Origin: Mobula hypostoma
Taxonomy: Eukaryota
Assembly (NCBI RefSeq): GCF_963921235.1
Contig: NC_086097.1
Coordinates: 62,188,001-62,252,000 of the forward strand
DNA length: 64,000 nt
Direction of reading: 5' to 3'
The notes beneath the pieces were generated by a model that worked only from the letters and a program-made list of their open reading frames with translations, did no database searches and was not told the DNA's origin. Made by a program: the position numbers and the translations under genes. Shown piece by piece: positions 1,381 to 52,054 of the stretch. Numbering within the stretch: the first letter of the stretch is position 1; each line of letters begins with the position of its first letter.

Positions 1381-1739
1381 CTACTCCTTCTCAAACTGCA
1401 GGGTGAATTCTATCATCTTATGACCAATGCCTCCTAAGATCTCCTTTACATTAAGCTAAATAATTAAATGTGGTTGATCACACAGCCCCCAGTCCAGAAT
1501 TGCCTTGCCACTCAAACACAGCTAGTCTAAAAAGCCATCTTTTAGACATTCTACAGATTCTTCTCTTGGCATCCAGCATCAGACTGATTTTTTTTCCCAA
1601 TCTACCTGCACATTGAAATCCCTCAAAACAATCATAACATTACCCTTCTTTCATGGCTTTTCTATCTCTCTCTAATTTGTACTCCACATCCTGGCTACTG
1701 TTCAGACCTTTCAGGGTCTTTTTATACTGTTGGCAATAC

Positions 1740-2180
1740 ATAGAAAATGCTGGATAAACTCAGAAGGTCATACAGTATCCATTGAAAAGAACTGTCACTG
1801 GGCTGAGACCTTCATCAGGACTGGACAGGAAGGCAGAATAAAAAGGTGGGGGAAGGGGAGGATGATAGGTAGGTGATAGATAAATCCAGGCAGATGCAAA
1901 AGGCAAAGGGCTGTAGGGGAAGGGATTGGGCAGGAGAGGAGAGTGGACCATGGGGGAAAGGGAAGGAGGAGGGGCAGCAGGGGAAGGAGACAGGCAGGTG
2001 AGGAGAGGCAAGATGCCAGAGTGAGAAGTAGAAGAAGAGGGGAGAGGGAGGGAAGATTTTTTCTGGAAGGAGAAATCAACATTCATGCCATCAGGTTGGA
2101 GGCTACCCAGTCAGAATATAAGATGATACTCCTCCACCCTGAGGGTGGCCTCCTCAGGGCACAAGAGGACCAACAGGTTG
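1740..2180 (-). mobile_element. Older Penelope-like 3' fragment (GIY-YIG end and pLTR with decayed hammerhead)
   Basis: The minus strand reads LGSLQPDGMNVDF, matching the C-terminus of the 38340-38862 ORF. It also carries agtcCTGATGAaggtctcagccc at about 1800-1822. Confidence 0.7.
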
Positions 2181-2740
2181 ACATGTTTTTACTCTTGCAG
2201 GATTCTACACCTTCCAATTCTGTCACCCCTTTCTAAGGATTTGGTTTAAATTATTACCAACAAAACCATCCCAACTCCTCTGCCTACCTGTCTGTCCTTT
2301 CAATACAATGTGTATCCTTGGATGTTGAACACACAACTATGATCTTCCTTCAACTATGACTCAGTGATGCCTATAATGTCATACCTGCCAATCTCTAACT
2401 GCATTACAAGATCATCCACCTTATTCTATGTGCATTTAAATACAACACCTTCAGTCTTTTTTTTAAATCACCCTTTTTGACTTTGCCTCCATGTTACTCT
2501 TCAGCTCATTCCGTTGCAATTTTGCCTGTCATCTGCCTGTCTTTCCTCAACATCTCACTTCAAACTGCATGTGCCCCATCCTCAGTGCCAAATTAGCTTA
2601 AATACTCCCCAACAGCTCTGGAAAACATGTCCACAAGGACATTGGTGCCCCTCAAGTTCAGGTGTAACCTGTCCTTTTTGTACATAACATACCTTCCCCA
2701 GAAGAGATCCCAATGAGTCAGAAATCTGAAACCCTGTTCT

Positions 2741-2940
2741 TTTATACTTTATATTTTATTGTCGCCAAACAATTGGTACTAGAACGTACAATCATTACAG
2801 CAATATTTGGTTCTGCGCTCCACACTCATTGGATTACAAATATTAAATATTAAAAATAGTTAAAATTGGTAAATATTAAAAATTTAAATTATAAATCATA
2901 AATAGAAAATAGAAAAATGGGTAGTAAGGTAGTGCAAAAT
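2741..2940 (-). mobile_element. Rex1/Babar 3' UTR fragment, same family as 30984-33851
   Basis: Closely similar to 30984-31175 (tggtactagaacg...ggattacaaatattaaatattaaaaa...gtagtgcaaaa). Confidence 0.8.
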
Positions 2941-3799
2941 TCACCCTCCTCCTTCAAAATGCCATGGACCGGATCTGAGACATCCCTGACCCCAGCACCT
3001 GGGAGACAGCATATCATCCGGGTGTCTCTTTCACATCCACAGAATCTACTGTCTGCTCATCTAACTGTGGAATCCCCTTTAACTACTGGATTTCTCTTCT
3101 CCCCTCTTCCCTTCTGAGCTTCAGAGCCAGACACAGTGCCAGTGACCCTCTCACTGTGGCTTCCTCCTGACAGGACAGCCCTCCCCAACAGAATCCAAAA
3201 TGGTATTCTTATTATCAAAGGGAATGGCCTTATGGGTACTCTGCACTGGCTGCCTATTCCCTTTCCCTCTCCTGATAATCACTCAACTACCAGCCTCCTG
3301 TAACTTTGGCGCGACAACCTCGATGTAGCTCCTGTCTGTCACCTCCACATTTTCCCACGCGAGCCAAAGGTCATCGATCTGCAGCTCCAGTTCCTTAATA
3401 CAGTCTCTAAGGAACTGCAGCTCCCGTGTCCATTTCCCTCAATAGTAAGTATATCACGTGGATACTGTTGGTGGAGGGCAACAATTTACCGGGGGAAACT
3501 GCAGCGACTGGGGTCTCTGGCACTTCTTCATGCTGGTGCAGTTATCAGGGAGACTGGAGGTTCCCATGTCTTATATGAAAAACATACCACTAACCCTGGG
3601 TCCATTCTCGACACACCAGCTATGTACTTATAAATAAAGAAAGAGAAAAAATCCTTCTGGAAACTGTTTATTTTGCTTGTTTTGGGTAATGGTTATATTA
3701 CAGGATATGTCCAGTAAAATAAGCACTGATTGCAAAGTGAGTTGCAATCCCAAAATGGCAGGGGATGAATTGAGATTCAAGATATGAACCAAACTGGGA

Positions 3800-3950
3800 G
3801 GCACCTTGATGCCACAAGTACAGCTGTTACCTCACAGCTTCAGTGATCTGAGTTCATTCCTGACCTTGGCCGCTGTCTTTGTGGAGTTTACCATTCTTCC
3901 TGTGACAACACGGGCTTTCCCAAAGTTCTTCCCAACGTATGAAAAGTCTT
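3800..3950 (+). mobile_element. Degenerate tRNA-derived V-SINE
   Basis: B-box-like gagttcattcc followed by gtggagtttaccattcttcctgtgac...gggctttcc, matching the clearer copy at 44573. Confidence 0.5.
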
Positions 3951-4354
3951 AACTTTAAACATTGTCTGGCCATTTCCCTCCAATGATGCTGTCTGACCTG
4001 CTGAGTTCCTCCTGTTTTTTGTGTGTAGCTCAAAGTACCATAAGACCTGTTTATGAGCTGTTTTACTCCGACTATAATACCTGGAACTTTAAAAAGAGTC
4101 TTAGTCTGGCATTATTTAAACACAAAGTAAGTGAACACTTAGCAAGAGGTAAAATTGCATTGAGGTGCAGATCATCTTAAGAAGAAGCAAATCCTGTATC
4201 TAGCTGGTAGGATTTAAATTCATGTTTTTGCTATCATGTCCACAACGATGAACATCAGATTTAGACTCTGTTTATGTCAGACAATTTTGCCACAAGTCTT
4301 CTACTTTTAGAAATTGAATTGAAAAAGACAAGCTATATGTGAGCTAAGAACTAG

Positions 4355-4920
4355 GCATAGTGGCACAGTAGTTTGTACAGCTGCTTCACAGTTCCATCTA
4401 CCTAGATTCAACCTTGACCTGCAGAGCTATCTGTGTGTGATTCACGTTCTCCCTGTGCGTACTAGGTTCCTCGCAGGTCCCAAAGAGGTGCCAGTTGGTA
4501 TGTTAATTCATCTCTGCAAATTGTCCGTGGTGAGGGTAGTTAGCAGCAAAATCTGTGGAGTACTGCGGGCACGCCTAATAGCAACACACATCAAAGTTGC
4601 TGGTGAACGCAGCAGGCCAGGCAGCATCTCTAGGAAGAGGTACAGTCGACGTTTTGGGCAAAGACCCTTCGTCCCAATGAGATGAAGAGTCTCGGCCTGA
4701 AACGTTGACTGTAGCTCTTCCTAGAGATGCTGCCTGGCCTGCTGCGTTCACCAGCAACTTTGATGTGTGTTGCTTGAATTTCCAGCATCTGCAGAATTCC
4801 TCGTGTTTACATCTAATAGCAAACAGGTTGCAGGGTGGTTGAGGAGTAGGACTATATAGACTGATGAGTTTGCCCTGAGAGCCAGCACAGATTTGCTTAG
4901 CTGAATGATAATGGTGCCAT
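4355..4920 (+). mobile_element. tRNA-derived V-SINE interrupted by a palindromic Penelope insertion
   Basis: A-box tggcacagtag and B-box-like gattcaacc, followed by a partial V domain (ttctccctgtg...cccaaaga). Confidence 0.55.
4583..4812. mobile_element. Palindromic, highly truncated Penelope insertion (two inverted pLTR ends)
   Basis: 4581-4673 is the reverse complement of 4681-4773, with spacer ccaatga. The right arm has a ~40-nt extension. Direct repeat ctaatagc at 4575-4582 and 4813-4820. Confidence 0.85.
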
Positions 4921-4989
4921 AAGTAAATGTGTAAGGCACATCATCTCTACTTTCTTATAAGTTTGTGTAAGTTCAGCAATTCACAACAA

Positions 4990-5592
4990 CTTTGACAAAC
5001 CTCTGTAGGTGCACAGTGGAGTAGACACCACCTGGATGGATCACGGCCTGGGATGAAAAGGCCAACACCAGGAATGGAAAAGGCTGCAGAAAGTGGTGAA
5101 TATAGCTCAGACCATCACAGGCAAAGCCCTTCCCAGATTACAGTACAGCTGCATGGAGCACTGCCACAAGTAAGCAGCACTCATCATCGAAGGCCCACTC
5201 CCAACCCCCCACCACCCATCCTCTTGCTACTACTATCAGATCGGATGTGCAGAAGCCTTAGGTCCCACACTGTTAAGTTCAAGAACAGTTATACTCTACA
5301 ACCATCAGATTCCTGAACGGGTGTGGATAGCTTCATTCACCACTGCTCTGAACTGATTCTACAACCTGCAGACTCACTTTCAAAGATTCTTTATAATTTA
5401 TGTTCTTAGTTTTACTTTTATTTTCACAGTTTGCCTTTTGCGCATTGGTTGTTTATCAGTCCTTATCTGTTTACGTGTCAATTAAAACAAATCTATTATG
5501 TTTCTTTTATTCTTGCAATTGCCTGCAAGGAAATTAATCTCGAAGTAGCGTATGGTAACATTCGTATCTTAATAATACATTTACTTTGAACT
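4990..5592 (+). mobile_element. Rex1/Babar 3' fragment
   Basis: RSLRSHTVKFKNSY-type ORF end, a 3' UTR shared with other Rex1 copies, and a tactttgaacttcgaa tail. Confidence 0.7.
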
Positions 5593-12915: not shown

Positions 12916-13089
12916 TAGATGGCGACAATTTTTTTTCTGGAATGAGTCTGATTTTTGTTGTTGGGCTGGATTGCCCCACTATATCCAATTAATGCAAGCC
13001 TGAAAATAGTGAATGGAGGCTGCAAATATTCTCTCCTCCCCTTTCATCTGCAATCCTGCATTGGGTGTTAAACATTCCTGAAGCCCTCA

Positions 13090-13380
13090 GATCATAACCA
13101 GATTCAATTTTGTTATCACTGACATGTTGTAAAAATTTGTTGTTTGTGGCAACAGGAGAATGCAATACATAAAAATTCCTATAAATTTCTGTAACTAAAA
13201 AACATATATGAAAATAAATAGTGCAAAATGAGAGTGAAAGAGTGGGGTGGTGTTCATAGGTACTTGGGCTGTTCGTAAATCTACTGACAGAGGGGAAGCT
13301 GTTCCTAAAACACTGTGTGTGCATCTTCAGGCTGCTGTACCTTTCTACCCGATAGCAGTAATGAGACAAGGGCATCTCTT
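13090..13380 (-). mobile_element. Rex1/Babar 3' UTR fragment
   Basis: gaagctgttcc...cttcaggct with an antisense tail like those at 50645-51000 and 61060-61430. Confidence 0.55.
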
Positions 13381-13468
13381 GGATATCCTGGATTTTACAG
13401 TGATTGTAGAATGGGTGAAACATGTCTTTGACCCTCTTGTTCAGTGCGTTGTGTATTAGATATTGTCA

Positions 13469-13663
13469 GGGGTGTATGGGGTGTCAGGGAGGGGTAGCAC
13501 CTCTGGTGGGGGAACATATTGCGTCCTTTTCAGGGTGGTTAGTCCACCTTTGGTCGCCACCTGGCACTCAGCTCTCACCTGTGGCTCCCCGTAGCTATTT
13601 GCATGCGACAGCGGCCACACCGCAGGCAACGGCTTCGACAAGCCGGCTAAATCAGGTGAGGGT
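13469..13663 (+). ncRNA. HDV-like (nested double pseudoknot) ribozyme at the retroposon 5' end
   Basis: P1 GGGGUGU/ACACCGC (13617-13623); P2 CUCACCUG (13574-81)/CAGGUGAG (13653-60); P3 GGC/GCC; L3 UCCCCGUA; GCAAC; P4 CGGCUU-CGAC-AAGCCG; J4/2 GCUAA with putative catalytic C at 13647. Confidence 0.72.
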
Positions 13664-14050
13664 AGCCGACGGGTCTCAAACCCTCGGTGTGATAGGGAGT
13701 TGTCTATCCCAGCATGTGAAGACAGACTCCGGCGGATTGAGCAGATGAGACCAATGGAAGGTCCAACGGTCAAGAAGGCGGTCTCTGCAAGCGTCGTGGA
13801 ACGTGTAGATCAGGACAAGACACAGAAGACGTCCTGGTCATCCACTGCGCCTAGTCCCATCTCCAGCCGTCTCGACTCTGTCTTGCCACTGGATCCAGAT
13901 GGGAATTGGGAAGAGAGAGTGAGGCTGACGTTGCGCAACTCTCCCTCACTTAAATCCAAATCACGTGCTAGTCTCGACACCATCATTATGGTGTCGAGGT
14001 CCTCATCGACACCAACGATGGACGAACAACCAACCAACCAACAACCAACC
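13469..14050 (+). mobile_element. Non-autonomous RTE-like retroposon (582 bp) with 11-bp TSD and (CAAC)n tail
   Basis: TSD agatattgtca at 13458-13468 and 14051-14061; microsatellite tail; 3' hairpins; no RT/EN motifs. The RTE assignment is inferred from the tail and the 5' ribozyme. Confidence 0.8.
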
Positions 14051-16074
14051 AGATATTGTCAAAATCTGGAAAATCAGCTCAGTATAATTACTTTATCATT
14101 TCGAATGTCTGAACAAATTATAGCTTTTAATGTCCTGACAAACATTGAATTTAGGAACATATTATCGTGAAATTACTAACCTCAGCTATAATATTCTTCA
14201 CGGTGAAATAGAGAAAAACTAACCACGTTGCCTGTGTTTTCCTGTTGGACAAGAAATGCTTATTTTACAATTCAAATCCATTTCAACTTTTAGTCCTGGT
14301 GCTGTGTATAAGTGGGAAATTCTGGGAAGGATCATGTTGGTGATGACCTTCTGGCTAATTTACTAAGACCTTTCCATCATTCAATCTGTAATCTCCTCCA
14401 GCACTTCACCTTCACAAGTTATATGCACTCCTCCAACTCTGATCTCTCGAATGTCCCCCGATTTAATAATTGAAGGAATGGTTGCTATGCCTACAGCTGC
14501 TGATCATCTCAGCCCTGAAATAATCTCCCTGGATTTTTCAGCATCCCTGCCTTTTTTTTCTCACTTTAAGATTCTCTTTAAAGCATGCTTCTTTGATATA
14601 TCTTGTGATATTCTCTTATGTGATTCATTGTCAGATGTTGCTTGGTAATGGTCCTGTATGGGACATTCCACTACCTTAAAGATTCAATGTGAATACAAGT
14701 TGCTGGTGTTTAATATTTTATGGATATCAAATTCTTGATAGTCTGTTGACGTGCATCAAAACCATTTCAAAAATGCAAACACTGGGCATGTTTCTTTGTC
14801 AAACTTTGCTGAAACAGACAGTGGGTTAGCATTGTTCTGCCAGGTAAGCATAACCTTGTATAAGAAGGTTTTCTCCAGAGTTTCTGCAAATAATATGGCA
14901 GCGCATGGGAACAAGTTTCAAGAAAATTAACTTTCATGACTGCTTTGCAACACTATTATTCATAGCCACAATCCAGAATCTGTGATATGCCAAGTTCTTG
15001 CCCTGTAAACGTTTGTACAAAGTTCTTACTGTCTGCTGCATCAACTTTAAAAGGACAAACCTAAGGAGGAGTTATAGAGAAGTACAGCACAGAATTAACC
15101 CTTACATACTGTTCGGGTCAACTTTGACCCTTTTGACCGCAGTGAAAACACCCTAAACGTCGTTTTTCCCAGCCAAAATTTTATGACTTTTCCTAAAGTG
15201 ACCCAAAATGCGCAAAAGTGAAAAGATTTTTAAAAATTAAACTTTTATACAGGTGCTACAATTTTTGCAATACTGAAGCTGTTCCAGGCCAAGTTTTACC
15301 CGTACCGATTGCAATGGCTATTGGTGGTCTAATGTTACGTGGAACTCCTGGAAAGGTCATAGTGCCTTGGCGCTGTGGCGAGATCTGCATCTGCAAGCAC
15401 ACGGTGAGCTGAGCATGCATTTTAGTGACGGCAGTTATGGAAGCAAGACGTAGACTTTGTGTTCAGGAAGTAATTGATCAGGTGTTTGAAGATGAACATA
15501 CAGACAGTGAATTGGAGGAGGAATTTTCAGAGCAGGAGGACTACATGGAGGAAGACTCTGATTACAGCCCCTCAGACGAAGACGACTCTGACAGAGAGGA
15601 GGAGAAAGCAAGGGAAATATTTATGTCCAAGGACAACAAGATCTGTTGGTCCTCACTTCCATATGAGGCTGCAGGCAGGATGGCAGCGGAAAATGTCATT
15701 CAGAAGACTCCAGGACCCACAAGACCGGCTGTATCACATGCATTTGACGTTTTATCTACTTTCCTGCTCTCCTGGGAAGCCAGCTGTGGGAGGCCCGGAG
15801 AGAAAGCAAGGCATGCGCGTCGTGTTGGACGTGACAGAAGGGCTGAAAGGAAACAACGTGACCTGTGACAACTTCTTCATGTCTCATGAGCTTGGTCAGG
15901 CGCTCCTAAAGAAGAAAATCACAATGGTAGGTACTGTGAGGTGGAACAAGCCGGAGATGCCACCTGCTCTGACTGAAAGAAGGGGGAGAGAGGTCTTGTC
16001 TTCTAAGTTTGTGTTCACCCATGACACCACAGTTGTGTGGTATGTGGCAAAGAAGAACAAGAATGTGATCCTCA

Positions 16075-51811: not shown

Positions 51812-52054
51812 CGACTGGTGGCACAGTGACATCAGCGCCGGACTCCGGAACGGAGGTTCCTGGGTTCGAATCCAGTTGGGCCACTCCCAAGTACGCTTTC
51901 CATCCGTTCTGGGTTGAGTGTTGAGCTCACAACTCGACCTCGTAAAAATAAAAGAAAAATATTGCAAAATGTTTGTGTGAGGAGTGGCGCCCCACACAGC
52001 CTTCCAATCTGCACCTTGTAAGGCATGAAAATGCCTGACGCTGGCCTCTCATCG
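51812..52054 (+). mobile_element. tRNA-derived SINE (non-V family) with 6-bp TSD
   Basis: A-box tggcacagtga; perfect B-box ggttcgaatcc (51863-51873); TSD tgacat at 51806-51811 and 52055-52060. Confidence 0.8.

What the first reader, a model, noticed from the sequence alone, without database searches (positions are those of the whole stretch)
13469..13663. HDV-like ribozyme heading a non-coding retroposon, with an extra stem-loop in L3
Seen in sequence: the HDV fold elements occur in order. P1 5' GGGGUGU is at 13469-75 and duplicated at 13478-84, followed by a ~90-nt J1/2. P2 is CUCACCUG/CAGGUGAG (8 Watson-Crick pairs, extendable) and P3 is GGC (13583-85)/GCC (13614-16). L3 begins UCCCCGUA, the spacing of HDV U20-C21-C22...G25. 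P1 3' is ACACCGC, then GCAAC as in HDV 40-44, P4 CGGCUU/AAGCCG, and GGCUAA, placing the C75 equivalent at 13647. G1 sits immediately after the TSD. Established: HDV-like ribozymes process the 5' ends of R2 and RTE retrotransposons. Inference: this is a ribozyme-headed, promoter-less SINE-like family with an atypical ~20-nt hairpin (13594-13612) at the flexible end of L3. This copy has two likely lesions, G13622 in P1 and A13624 in P1.1.
Basis: partly seen in the sequence, partly recalled or inferred. Interest (0 to 1): 0.85.

Follow-up and report, generated by a model that had tools for sequence, protein, structure and literature searches.

The report
Ribozyme-headed retroposon family in ray genome
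A 582-base jumping-DNA copy begins with a fold that matches the hepatitis-delta-type self-cutting RNA, and thousands of sister copies start at the predicted cut site, so this looks like a new variant of a known trick by which promoter-less retroelements trim their own RNA.

Summary
The insert is window 13469-14050, flanked by an 11-base target duplication. One public run holds the empty site.

The host genome carries at least 3,515 copies of the ribozyme core. In the two samples taken, most copies start at G1: 39 of 40 within 4 bases, and 44 of 53 within 3.

The family majority has C at 13622 (27 of 30) and G at 13624 (23 of 30). This gives a perfect 7-bp P1 and a GG for P1.1. The window copy is a decayed one.

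An older sister family is about 80% identical in the head and keeps all helices. Three base pairs differ by compensatory changes, one in P4 and two in J1/2. The L3 bases CC changed to AA exactly where HDV tolerates change.

The 19-nt hairpin inside L3 is conserved, and no canonical fold without it exists. The second GGGGUGU closes a structured J1/2 domain.

Rfam models do not reach threshold. Cleavage is untested, all sequencing runs were contigs, and no partner LINE was found.

Verdict: a genuine HDV-like ribozyme head on a non-coding, non-autonomous retroposon. It is a new variant of a known kind and of moderate interest.

The parts
13458..13468 (+). Upstream copy of the target-site duplication AGATATTGTCA
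   Evidence: It is a 100% direct repeat with 14051-61. A contig of run X23 joins 13445 to 14052 with 12 letters between, which is the empty site with a single target copy (table 5c and the flank depth in table 2).
13469..14050 (+). One 582-bp copy of a dispersed non-autonomous retroposon (family 1)
   Evidence: The 40 scored matches are 95-100% identical, out of 4042 first-look candidates in the host genome. The 34-nt core matches 3515 places at up to 3 mismatches, with 0 in the control.
13469..13475 (+). P1 5' strand GGGGUGU. The predicted cleavage site is immediately 5' of G13469.
   Evidence: It pairs with 13617-23, 7 of 7 pairs in the family majority and 6 of 7 in this copy. It is the first base of the element in most copies.
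13476..13571 (+). J1/2, a 96-nt structured peripheral domain. Its closing helix is 13479-85 with 13563-69, which uses the second GGGGUGU.
   Evidence: The independent minimum-energy folds of the two family majorities share 28 pairs. 94.3% of cells pair, against 40-53% when slid. Two pairs differ by compensatory changes between the families.
13572..13581 (+). P2 5' strand CUCUCACCUG
   Evidence: It pairs with 13653-62. 95.7% of cells pair in 60 sequences.
13583..13585 (+). P3 5' strand GGC
   Evidence: It pairs with GCC 13614-16. 95.4% of cells pair.
13586..13593 (+). 5' part of L3, UCCCCGUA. The U, the two C that form P1.1 and the G have the HDV spacing.
   Evidence: The sister family has UCCAAGUA, so only the two variable positions changed.
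13594..13612 (+). Extra hairpin capping L3 ('P3.1'): stem GCUGU/ACAGC with a 9-nt loop UUGCAUGCG. A13597 breaks one pair in this copy.
   Evidence: 13597 is G in 29 of 30 copies. 96.2% of cells pair. There is one difference, in the loop, between the two family majorities.
13614..13616 (+). P3 3' strand GCC
13617..13623 (+). P1 3' strand. It reads ACACCGC here and ACACCCC in the family majority, so G13622 is a lesion.
   Evidence: 13622 is C in 27 of 30 copies. C dominates in all four runs.
13624..13625 (+). P1.1 3' strand. It reads AG here and GG in the majority, so A13624 is a lesion at a CpG site.
   Evidence: 13624 is G in 23 of 30 copies and in 41 of 52.
13626..13629 (+). J1.1/4, the GCAA of GCAAC. 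It is not conserved; the sister family has UACA.
13630..13645 (+). P4 hairpin CGGCUU-CGAC-AAGCCG
   Evidence: Pair 13631:13644 is G:C in 35 rows and C:G in 14. Pair 13634:13641 is U:A in 44 rows and U:G in 15.
13646..13652 (+). J4/2, with the putative catalytic C at 13647 in GGCUAA
   Evidence: The T, A and A after the C are invariant, and the C is kept in 90% or more of 60 rows. This stretch is the part that matches Rfam RF02682.
13653..13662 (+). P2 3' strand CAGGUGAGGG
13663..13972 (+). Body. It holds an open frame from ATG 13754 to the tail with no stop, but no sign of coding.
   Evidence: There is no Pfam family above threshold. Relatives in 1.8 billion proteins are only short mis-predicted ones. 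Stops and synonymous changes are as expected for neutral decay, and 21 of 53 copies have indels.
13973..13998 (+). 3' stem-loop, 11-bp perfect arms CTCGACACCAT / ATGGTGTCGAG
   Evidence: In the older subfamily, about 150 nt of tRNA-type SINE lie between the arms.
13999..14050 (+). 3' end ...GATGGACGAAC followed by an (AACC/CAAC)n tail of variable length
   Evidence: Older copies end ...GATGGACGAACCTTA.
14051..14061 (+). Downstream copy of the target-site duplication

Best explanation
Window 13469-14050 is a decayed copy of a high-copy, non-coding, non-autonomous non-LTR retroposon. The first 194 bases of the family encode an HDV-like (double-pseudoknot) self-cleaving ribozyme.

Proposed mechanism:
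1. A source copy is transcribed as part of a longer host or read-through transcript (inferred).
2. The head folds into P1, a structured J1/2 domain, P2, P3, L3 with an extra capping helix, P1.1, P4 and J4/2 (shown as sequence, conservation and covariation).
3. The C of GGCUAA catalyses scission just 5' of G1 (inferred by analogy with HDV, R2, RTE and L1Tc ribozymes).
4. The released RNA, which starts at G1, is copied into new sites by the reverse transcriptase of an unidentified LINE. That enzyme recognises the 3' stem-loop and tail. The result is 7-14 bp target duplications and insertions that begin at G1 (the junctions are shown; the enzyme is inferred).

The window copy itself has mismatches in P1 (G13622), P1.1 (A13624) and the L3 helix (A13597), so it is probably inactive.
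For: Anatomy: all helices and the GGCUAA motif are in the canonical order.

The insertion is real.
- It has an 11-nt target duplication.
- Run X23 holds the empty site.
- 28 of 44 full-length copies have an exact direct repeat of at least 7 nt that ends within 3 nt of G1.

5' ends:
- 39 of 40 best matches start within query bases 1-4.
- 44 of 53 fetched copies start within bases 1-3.
- Genome-wide, the first 34 bases match 2749 places and the 34-nt core matches 3515, both at up to 3 mismatches, with 0 in the controls.

Majority restoration:
- 13622 is C in 27 of 30 copies, 13624 is G in 23 of 30, and 13597 is G in 29 of 30.
- The same letters dominate in runs of four organism codes.

Structure counts on 60 sequences:
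- For the 33 core pairs, 93.5% of cells pair, against 30-49% when slid.
- P4 pair 13631:13644 is G:C in 35 rows and C:G in 14.
- For the 28 J1/2 pairs, 94.3% pair, with two compensatory pairs.

Family 1 against family 2 majorities:
- There are 0 differences in the 7 bases of P1 5', 9 in 91 of the core, and 19 in 97 of J1/2.
- None of the core differences breaks a pair.
- The two L3 differences fall on the positions that are not conserved in HDV.

Folding: the minimum-energy fold of an intact copy (L014, identical to the majority) leaves bases 1-10 free for the pseudoknot.

Transcription: neither Rfam nor ARAGORN finds a tRNA, 5S or 7SL head. The younger family lost the internal tRNA-type module of the older one and still reached thousands of copies.
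Against: - No cleavage assay was done, and no RNA 5' ends could be read, because every run was held as contigs.
- Curated models do not recognise the head. The best hit is RF02682 at 21 bits against a gathering score of 44 (E 0.17), and it covers only P1'-P4-J4/2. An intact copy scores 16.6 bits.
- L3 is 28 nt with an inserted helix. I know of no HDV-like ribozyme built this way, and the insertion might abolish catalysis.
- Covariation rests on few events: one in P4 and two in J1/2, all between just two families. P1, P2, P3 and P3.1 are conserved but do not covary.
- The excess of divergence in J1/2 over the core is modest (Fisher p = 0.04).
- 10 of 52 copies have A at 13474, which breaks a P1 pair without compensation.
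- The 5'-end samples are biased towards full-length copies.
- No autonomous partner was found.
Confidence: 0.75

Rival explanations
1. The conserved fold is real but no longer (or never) catalytic. It serves as a structured 5' module for reverse-transcriptase or other protein binding, for RNA stability or for IRES-like function. The uniform 5' end comes from a transcription start at G1.
For: - The L3 insertion departs from every HDV-like ribozyme I know.
- The 19-nt L3 hairpin is conserved in sequence as well as in pairing, as a protein-binding or docking site would be.
- A review states that R2 protein binds a pseudoknot within the R2 ribozyme region (PMC6765202, passages read).
- No RNA-end data could be obtained.
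Against: - All catalytic-core features are kept across two families: G1 at the base of P1, the two L3 cytosines, the L3 G, and C-U-A-A in J4/2. Neighbouring non-essential positions drift.
- No promoter-type head was detected.
- There is a TTTT run at 13526-29 inside the head. From recalled knowledge, this would stop RNA polymerase III.
Confidence: 0.14
2. The resemblance to HDV-like ribozymes is chance in a G+C-rich, highly structured SINE head. The element is an ordinary retroposon with an unrelated head.
For: - Rfam finds nothing at gathering thresholds.
- The loose descriptor hits random sequence of the same composition 4 times in 2 Mb.
- The descriptor was written after seeing the element.
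Against: - The descriptor hits the 128 kb of window strands once, at this element.
- The P1 5' strand falls exactly on element bases 1-7.
- Family 2 keeps every helix and compensates in P4.
Confidence: 0.04
3. On origin only (this is compatible with the best explanation): the element is not a free-standing 'SINE' but an internally deleted derivative of an autonomous ribozyme-headed LINE, like the R2 SIDEs. Its body is left-over 5' UTR and the start of the ORF.
For: - An open frame runs from ATG 13754 to the tail. It is open in 29 of 30 young copies over the stretch from the family's usual ATG at 13754 to 14030; 17 of these 29 have a stop further upstream in the same frame.
- SIDEs with ribozyme plus 3' end are documented (PMC3414825, abstract read).
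Against: - The frame has no relative in any reverse-transcriptase protein among 1.8 billion representatives: 18 hits, all short mis-predictions or low-complexity proteins.
- There is no coding signature.
- The older subfamily is a composite with a tRNA-type SINE module. This points to template switching or recombination, not to a simple deletion.
- No LINE with this head or tail was found, but the search was shallow.
Confidence: 0.2

Closest known systems
HDV-like ribozymes at the 5' end of R2 retrotransposons (Eickbush, Burke and Eickbush 2013, PMC3774820; sections 12, 16 and 18 read)
   Same: - The ribozyme is the first thing in the element, and its cleavage defines the RNA 5' end.
- P1 is 6-7 bp, P2 is at least 5 bp, and P4 and J1/4 are variable.
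- The distance between P1 and P1' ranges from 23 to over 700 nt, so a 96-nt J1/2 is ordinary.
- Duplicated P1 strands are discussed there as a route to 5' extension.
   Different: - R2 is autonomous and inserts only in 28S rDNA. This family is non-coding and dispersed, with variable target duplications.
- The R2 L3 is a simple loop. Here L3 is capped by a conserved 5-bp helix.
Non-autonomous elements with an HDV-like ribozyme head: R2 SIDEs (PMC3414825, abstract read) and NARTc of Trypanosoma cruzi (PMC3383444, abstract in search listing)
   Same: Each has a ribozyme at the 5' end, a 3' end recognised by a partner's reverse transcriptase, and no ORF.
   Different: - Those derive visibly from a known autonomous partner, and SIDEs are described as rare.
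- Here no partner is known, there are at least 3,500 copies in a vertebrate genome, the older form is fused to a tRNA-type SINE module, and L3 is unusual.
HDV-like ribozymes of RTE and Baggins elements (Ruminski et al. 2011: recalled, the paper was not held; summarised in the review PMC6765202, section 11 passages read)
   Same: These are dispersed elements without their own promoter, transcribed from introns or read-through, and released by a 5' HDV-like ribozyme. This is the mechanism proposed here.
   Different: Those are autonomous LINEs. Whether this family's partner is an RTE, an L2 or another clade was not established.
Large HDV-like ribozymes with a structured J1/2 peripheral domain (Webb, Nguyen, Myszka and Luptak 2016, PMC4908430; abstract and introduction read)
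   Same: A stable helix closes J1/2 two bases after P1 and two bases before P2, the arrangement that paper says 'pinches' P1 and P2 together and speeds catalysis.
   Different: No L3 insertion is described there, and no activity data exist for the present RNA.
Canonical tRNA-, 5S- or 7SL-derived SINEs
   Same: Short, non-coding and high in copy number, with target duplications and a LINE-type 3' stem-loop and tail.
   Different: - The head is not a polymerase III gene relative.
- The only tRNA-type module sits near the 3' end of the older subfamily and was lost in the younger, more numerous one.

Membership tests
HDV-like self-cleaving ribozyme | Nested double pseudoknot with the strands in the order P1, J1/2, P2, P3, L3, P3', P1', P1.1, P4, J4/2, P2' | tested here: met
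   The order and coordinates were read. 93.5% of 1949 cells pair in 60 sequences, against 30-49% for slid controls.
HDV-like self-cleaving ribozyme | P1 of about 7 bp that starts with G at +1, with the cleavage site at the 5' end of the functional RNA | tested here: met
   The family majority pairs GGGGUGU with ACACCCC, 7 of 7; the window copy pairs 6 of 7. G1 is the first base of the element: target duplication, empty site, and 44 of 53 copies starting within bases 1-3.
HDV-like self-cleaving ribozyme | P1.1: two L3 cytosines pair with two G directly after P1 | tested here: met
   C:G is present in 55 and 45 of 59 rows with letters. Family 2 changes the next two L3 bases (CC to AA) but keeps these two. 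The window copy has A13624, so this pair is broken there.
HDV-like self-cleaving ribozyme | 3-bp P3 closed by a short L3 loop of about 7-8 nt, with a 5' U and a conserved G (the loop length is recalled from HDV and R2 descriptions) | tested here: inconclusive
   P3 is 3 bp, and U, CC and G have the HDV spacing. But L3 is 28 nt, because a 19-nt hairpin sits between the eighth L3 base and P3'. No alternative canonical P3/L3 exists in the sequence (my reading).
HDV-like self-cleaving ribozyme | Catalytic cytosine in J4/2 followed by purines (C-N-R-A) | tested here: met
   The motif GGCUAA has its C at 13647. The U, A and A are invariant, and the C is kept in 90% or more of 60 rows.
HDV-like self-cleaving ribozyme | A match to a curated covariance model at its gathering score | tested here: not met
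   There are 0 matches at gathering thresholds. The best is RF02682 at 21 bits against 44, and 16.6 bits for an intact copy. These models have no room for a 96-nt J1/2 or for an L3 helix.
HDV-like self-cleaving ribozyme | Divalent-ion-dependent self-scission that leaves a 5'-OH and is abolished by mutating the catalytic C | not testable with these tools
   This needs bench work. The public runs were available only as contigs.
Non-LTR non-autonomous retroposon (SINE in the broad sense) | Dispersed high-copy insertions flanked by target-site duplications, with an empty site in a relative | tested here: met
   and the empty-site contig in X23.
Non-LTR non-autonomous retroposon (SINE in the broad sense) | No protein-coding capacity | tested here: met
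   The stop-free frame from 13754 shows no coding signature.
Non-LTR non-autonomous retroposon (SINE in the broad sense) | A 3' end shared with an autonomous LINE of the same genome | tested here: inconclusive
   The top 150 RVT_1 matches were all of one L1-type family. The single copy fetched, L058, has a 1264-aa ORF and no similarity to the element. Other LINE families were not reached.
Canonical SINE (polymerase III head) | A 5' head derived from tRNA, 5S or 7SL RNA with an internal promoter | tested here: not met
   There is no such match in 13400-14100 at E up to 10, and ARAGORN finds none. A-box-like and B-box-like motifs occur only in the internal module of the older subfamily. The box consensus sequences are recalled, and neither ARAGORN nor Rfam calls that module a tRNA.
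R2 SIDE | Derived from R2 and inserted at the 28S rDNA R2 site | tested here: not met
   The flanks and target duplications differ at every copy examined.

The most novel reading that the evidence does not exclude
This is an active HDV-like ribozyme of a previously undescribed architecture. L3 is turned from a hairpin loop into an internal loop capped by a conserved helix ('P3.1'). The loop of that helix carries the self-complementary GCAUGC, so it may dock a protein (perhaps the partner's reverse transcriptase) or a second RNA. The ribozyme heads a recently mobile family of several thousand copies in a cartilaginous fish, and that family expanded after losing its only polymerase-III-type module. 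If so, it is a natural vertebrate system in which ribozyme processing alone supplies the 5' end of a retroposon.
Probability: 0.45. Interest if true: 0.7.

Novelty: new variant of a known kind. Interest (0 to 1): 0.52.

Why it matters
HDV-like ribozymes at the 5' ends of non-LTR elements are established for R2, RTE, Baggins and L1Tc, and for their deletion derivatives. The principle is therefore not new.

What would be new:
- A helix inserted into L3, the strand that builds the active site. Current search descriptors and Rfam models would miss such ribozymes, so the family's true spread may be underestimated.
- An abundant, young, non-coding family in a jawed vertebrate that appears to rely on the ribozyme and not on a polymerase III head.
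- Two naturally diverged families that already act as a mutational series: L3 CC to AA, J1.1/4 GCAA to UACA, and a flipped P4 pair.

The family is easy to test. Intact genomic copies exist, and the window copy is a ready-made triple-lesion control.

Tried and rejected
- Rfam at gathering thresholds gave nothing over the whole window. Permissive scans gave only a partial RF02682 match below threshold.
- The coding hypothesis for the stop-free frame 13754 to the tail was rejected.
  - Pfam gave only DUF746 at E 0.027, below its cut-off.
  - phmmer against 1.8 billion representatives gave 18 hits. The six I fetched were short proteins that are translated copies of the same repeat from other genomes, plus two unrelated repetitive proteins; I did not look at the other twelve, which the hit table lists at 58-214 residues.
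  - Stops were seen in 1 of 32 copies without indels, against 1.5 expected.
  - The synonymous share is 56 of 164 in frame, against 42 of 163 and 43 of 161 out of frame.
- Long open frames next to some copies (742, 357 and 369 codons) turned out to be neighbouring repeats, not a LINE.
- The partner LINE was sought with PF00078. All 150 scored matches were of one L1-type family, and the single copy I fetched (L058) is unrelated to the element. The partner remains unidentified.
- RNA 5' ends could not be read. All 24 listed runs are held as contigs, and table 6 lists no molecule ends, which says nothing either way. In run X1, only guessed to be RNA, 8 contigs run on upstream of 13469 into unlike sequence. 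I do not count this as evidence of co-transcripts.
- I tested whether the second GGGGUGU is an alternative cleavage site. Only 1 of 53 copies starts at base 10, and that stretch pairs in the J1/2 closing helix.
- ARAGORN and Rfam do not call the internal module of the older subfamily a tRNA. Its tRNA-type label rests on box-like motifs that I recall.
- Earlier notes of this scan hold no look-alike of this sequence.
- Literature:
  - A search for an L3 insertion in HDV-like ribozymes found nothing relevant.
  - Searches for 'HDV-like' with 'shark', and for 'ribozyme' with 'retrotransposon' and 'elasmobranch', gave 2 papers each, none on this subject by title.
  - An earlier broad search was uninformative.
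  - Ruminski et al. 2011 was not held.
Full report
**What is in the window**

- GGGGTGT lies at 13469-75 and again at 13478-84.
- A 96-nt stretch follows.
- Next come CTCTCACCTG (13572-81), GGC (13583-85) and TCCCCGTA (13586-93).
- A hairpin occupies 13594-13612, followed by GCC (13614-16).
- Then come ACACCGC (13617-23), AG, and GCAAC.
- The hairpin CGGCTT-CGAC-AAGCCG occupies 13630-45.
- GGCTAA follows, with its C at 13647.
- CAGGTGAGGG (13653-62) closes the fold.

An 11-nt perfect direct repeat, AGATATTGTCA, lies at 13458-68 and 14051-61. It brackets a 582-bp G+C-rich insert. The insert ends in an 11-bp perfect stem-loop (13973-98) and an (AACC/CAAC)n tail.

**It is a member of a large dispersed family**

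- The host genome is 3.48 Gb in 200 contigs.
- The whole insert gave 4042 first-look candidates. The 40 that were scored are 95-100% identical.
- The 34-nt stretch from P1' to GGCTAA matches 3515 places at up to 3 mismatches (1789 forward, 1726 reverse, 0 in the reversed-pattern control).
- The first 34 bases of the element match 2749 places under the same rule.
- The flanks differ at every copy.
- Of 44 fetched copies that start at bases 1-3, 28 have an exact direct repeat of 7-14 nt whose upstream copy ends within 3 nt of G1.
- In public run X23 (organism code F), a contig covers both flanks and joins 13445 to 14052 with 12 other letters between (tables 2 and 5c). I read those letters as the diverged counterpart of 13446-58, followed by a single copy of the target. 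That is the empty site, so the insertion boundaries are fixed independently of any fold.

**5' ends**

- Among the 40 best matches, 32 start at query base 1 and 39 within bases 1-4.
- Among 53 distinct family-1 copies fetched, 37 start at base 1, 5 at base 2 and 2 at base 3. The other nine start at bases 4, 4, 5, 6, 7, 8, 10, 17 and 46.
- 30 of the 53 were chosen as best full-length matches, so the sample is biased. The 23 found through internal protein-level matches show the same pattern.
- Only one copy starts at base 10, so the second GGGGTGT is not a common cleavage site.

In 30 young copies, the majority differs from the window copy at four positions in the head.
- 13622 is C in 27 of 30.
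- 13624 is G in 23 of 30.
- 13597 is G in 29 of 30.
- 13652 is C in 27 of 30.

The source sequence therefore had ACACCCC, a perfect 7-bp partner of GGGGUGU. It was followed by GG, the partner of the two L3 cytosines. The L3 hairpin stem GCUGU/ACAGC was intact. The same four letters dominate in contigs of four runs that carry four different organism codes. One natural copy, L014:1501-1700, is identical to the majority over the head.

**A second, older family gives the comparison that copies of one family cannot**

Loose ends pointed to a variant core. A 27-nt motif from it matches 369 places in the host genome at up to 2 mismatches, with 0 in the control. I fetched 15 of them and aligned them with 45 family-1 rows.

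These rows were left out:
- L019, L029, L033, L034, L038, L042, L043 and L051, which are 5'-truncated;
- L031, which is the same place as L007;
- L055-L057, which were simply not added.

The result is alignment A1, with 60 rows.

The two majorities differ as follows.
- 0 of 7 positions in P1 5'.
- 19 of 97 positions in J1/2.
- 9 of 91 positions in the core (Fisher p = 0.04 for J1/2 against core plus P1).

None of the nine core differences breaks a pair.
- Two turn L3 UCCCCG into UCCAAG. They leave the U, the two P1.1 cytosines and the G untouched.
- One is in the loop of the L3 hairpin.
- Three change J1.1/4 from GCA to UAC.
- Three are in P4. There, 13631:13644 flips from G:C to C:G (35 against 14 rows), and 13634:13641 goes from U:A to U:G (44 against 15 rows).

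Over the 33 core pairs, 93.5% of 1949 cells form a standard pair, against 30-49% with the 3' partners slid by 1-3 columns. P1, P2, P3 and the L3 helix are conserved but do not covary, so they are neither confirmed nor contradicted by covariation.

**J1/2 is a structured domain**

The minimum-energy folds of the two majorities, computed separately, share 28 of 32 and 31 pairs. On A1, 94.3% of cells pair, against 40-53% when slid. Two pairs changed on both sides between the families: G:C to A:U (43 against 12 rows) and A:U to G:C (44 against 11 rows). The structure was derived from these same sequences, which inflates the paired share.

The closing helix pairs 13479-85 with 13563-69. The 'duplicated P1' is therefore one strand of a helix that sits two bases after P1 and two bases before P2. 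Webb et al. report that this arrangement activates large HDV-like ribozymes (PMC4908430, abstract and introduction read). In R2 ribozymes the two P1 strands lie 23 to over 700 nt apart (PMC3774820, section 18), so the size of J1/2 is not unusual.

**The unusual part is L3**

The first eight L3 bases (UCCCCGUA) have the length and spacing of the HDV L3; the HDV numbering is recalled. A 5-bp helix with a 9-nt loop, plus one G, then intervenes before P3'. I found no alternative canonical P3/L3 pairing in the sequence. If the RNA is an HDV-like ribozyme, the helix must be accommodated. It sits at the 3' end of L3. From recalled structural work on HDV, that end is the exposed and dispensable one.

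One literature search for L3 insertions found nothing relevant. I do not claim such a helix is unreported beyond that.

**Curated models**

Rfam gives no match at gathering scores. The best permissive match is RF02682 (the HDV ribozyme of F. prausnitzii) at 21 bits against a threshold of 44, E 0.17. It covers GCAGGCAAC-P4-GGCUAA. An intact copy scores 16.6 bits. The models cannot span the two insertions, so this is a failed membership feature but not evidence against the fold.

A descriptor I wrote after seeing the element hits the window once on both strands. It hits 4 times in 2 Mb of random sequence with the head's composition, and 0 times in 2 Mb with window composition.

**Non-coding status**

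A frame is open from ATG 13754 through the tail. Over the stretch from 13754 to 14030 it is open in 29 of 30 young copies. Several results speak against coding.
- No Pfam family reaches threshold.
- Relatives among 1.8 billion proteins are only short mis-predicted ones, none with reverse transcriptase.
- 21 of 53 copies have indels in the frame.
- Stops are as expected under neutral decay (1 observed, 1.5 expected, in 32 copies).
- The synonymous share in frame (56 of 164) is close to that of the other frames.

The protein hits do show that diverged relatives of the repeat, head included, exist in other genomes.

**Composite history**

- Older copies (81-92% identical among themselves in this module) carry about 150 nt between the two arms of the 3' stem-loop. 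The extra piece has A-box-like and B-box-like motifs (consensus recalled). It resembles a stand-alone SINE in the window at about 51815-51948 (79% over 136 nt; sequence).
- All six best genomic matches to that module lie inside composite copies.
- These older copies end ...GATGGACGAACCTTA.
- The younger family lacks the module, gained an (AACC)n tail, and is the more numerous.
- Neither Rfam nor ARAGORN sees a polymerase III gene relative in the head.
- I therefore infer that transcription does not depend on an internal polymerase III promoter. This fits, but does not prove, read-through transcription followed by ribozyme release, the mechanism reviewed for RTE and Baggins elements (PMC6765202, section 11).

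**What remains open**

- No cleavage was measured.
- No RNA ends could be read, because all runs were contigs.
- The partner LINE is unknown. The 150 best reverse-transcriptase matches belong to one L1-type family, and the copy I fetched, L058, is unrelated to the element.
- The covariation rests on two families only.

**Verdict**

The principle is known from R2, SIDEs, RTE, Baggins, and L1Tc with NARTc. The L3-capping helix, the vertebrate high-copy non-coding carrier and the composite history make this a new variant of a known kind.

Noticed in passing
window 51813-51950: A stand-alone tRNA-type SINE with box-A-like TGGCACAGTGA and box-B-like GGTTCGAATCC. It is 79% identical over 136 nt to the module that sits inside the 3' stem-loop of the older ribozyme-headed subfamily, but it continues into a different A-rich 3' part.
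   Followed up: partly
window 13599-13607 (loop of the L3 hairpin): The 9-nt loop UUGCAUGCG holds the self-complementary GCAUGC. It also holds UGCAUG, which I recall as the Rbfox-binding hexamer. This could mean loop-loop dimerisation or protein binding, or nothing at all.
   Followed up: no
window 12989-13465, minus strand: A 158-codon open frame abuts the insertion site. Its ...RYSSLKMHTQCFRNSFPSVSRF stretch looks to me (from memory) like the C-terminal end of a fish LINE ORF2. The retroposon seems to have landed in or beside an older LINE fragment.
   Followed up: no
L058 (G000:C1:65939800-65946300), 1481-5272: An intact 1264-codon L1-type ORF2. All 150 best RVT_1 matches in the genome scored almost identically (about 156-160 bits), and many of them sit in 1264-codon frames. 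They came from 332,531 first-look candidates. This suggests a very young and very abundant L1-like family.
   Followed up: partly
window 13474 (and the same position in L009, L012, L020, L026, L030 and others): 10 of 52 copies have A instead of G at the sixth base of P1, with no compensating change at 13618. This may be a subfamily with a weakened P1, or recurrent change at the 5' junction.
   Followed up: no
window 13469 (first base of the copies): The first base is G in 40 of 52 copies, T in 8, A in 3 and C in 1. One-base variation at the 5' junction is reminiscent of R2 junction variability.
   Followed up: no
G000:C1:241729130-241729255: A core motif on the minus strand and a head motif on the plus strand lie about 60 nt apart. 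They may be two partial copies head to head.
   Followed up: no
window 13663-13700: The stretch just after P2 (GUAGCCGAC GGGUCUCAAACCC UCGGUG) can form a further hairpin, and it is fairly conserved in family 2. It may be an extension of the structured head.
   Followed up: no
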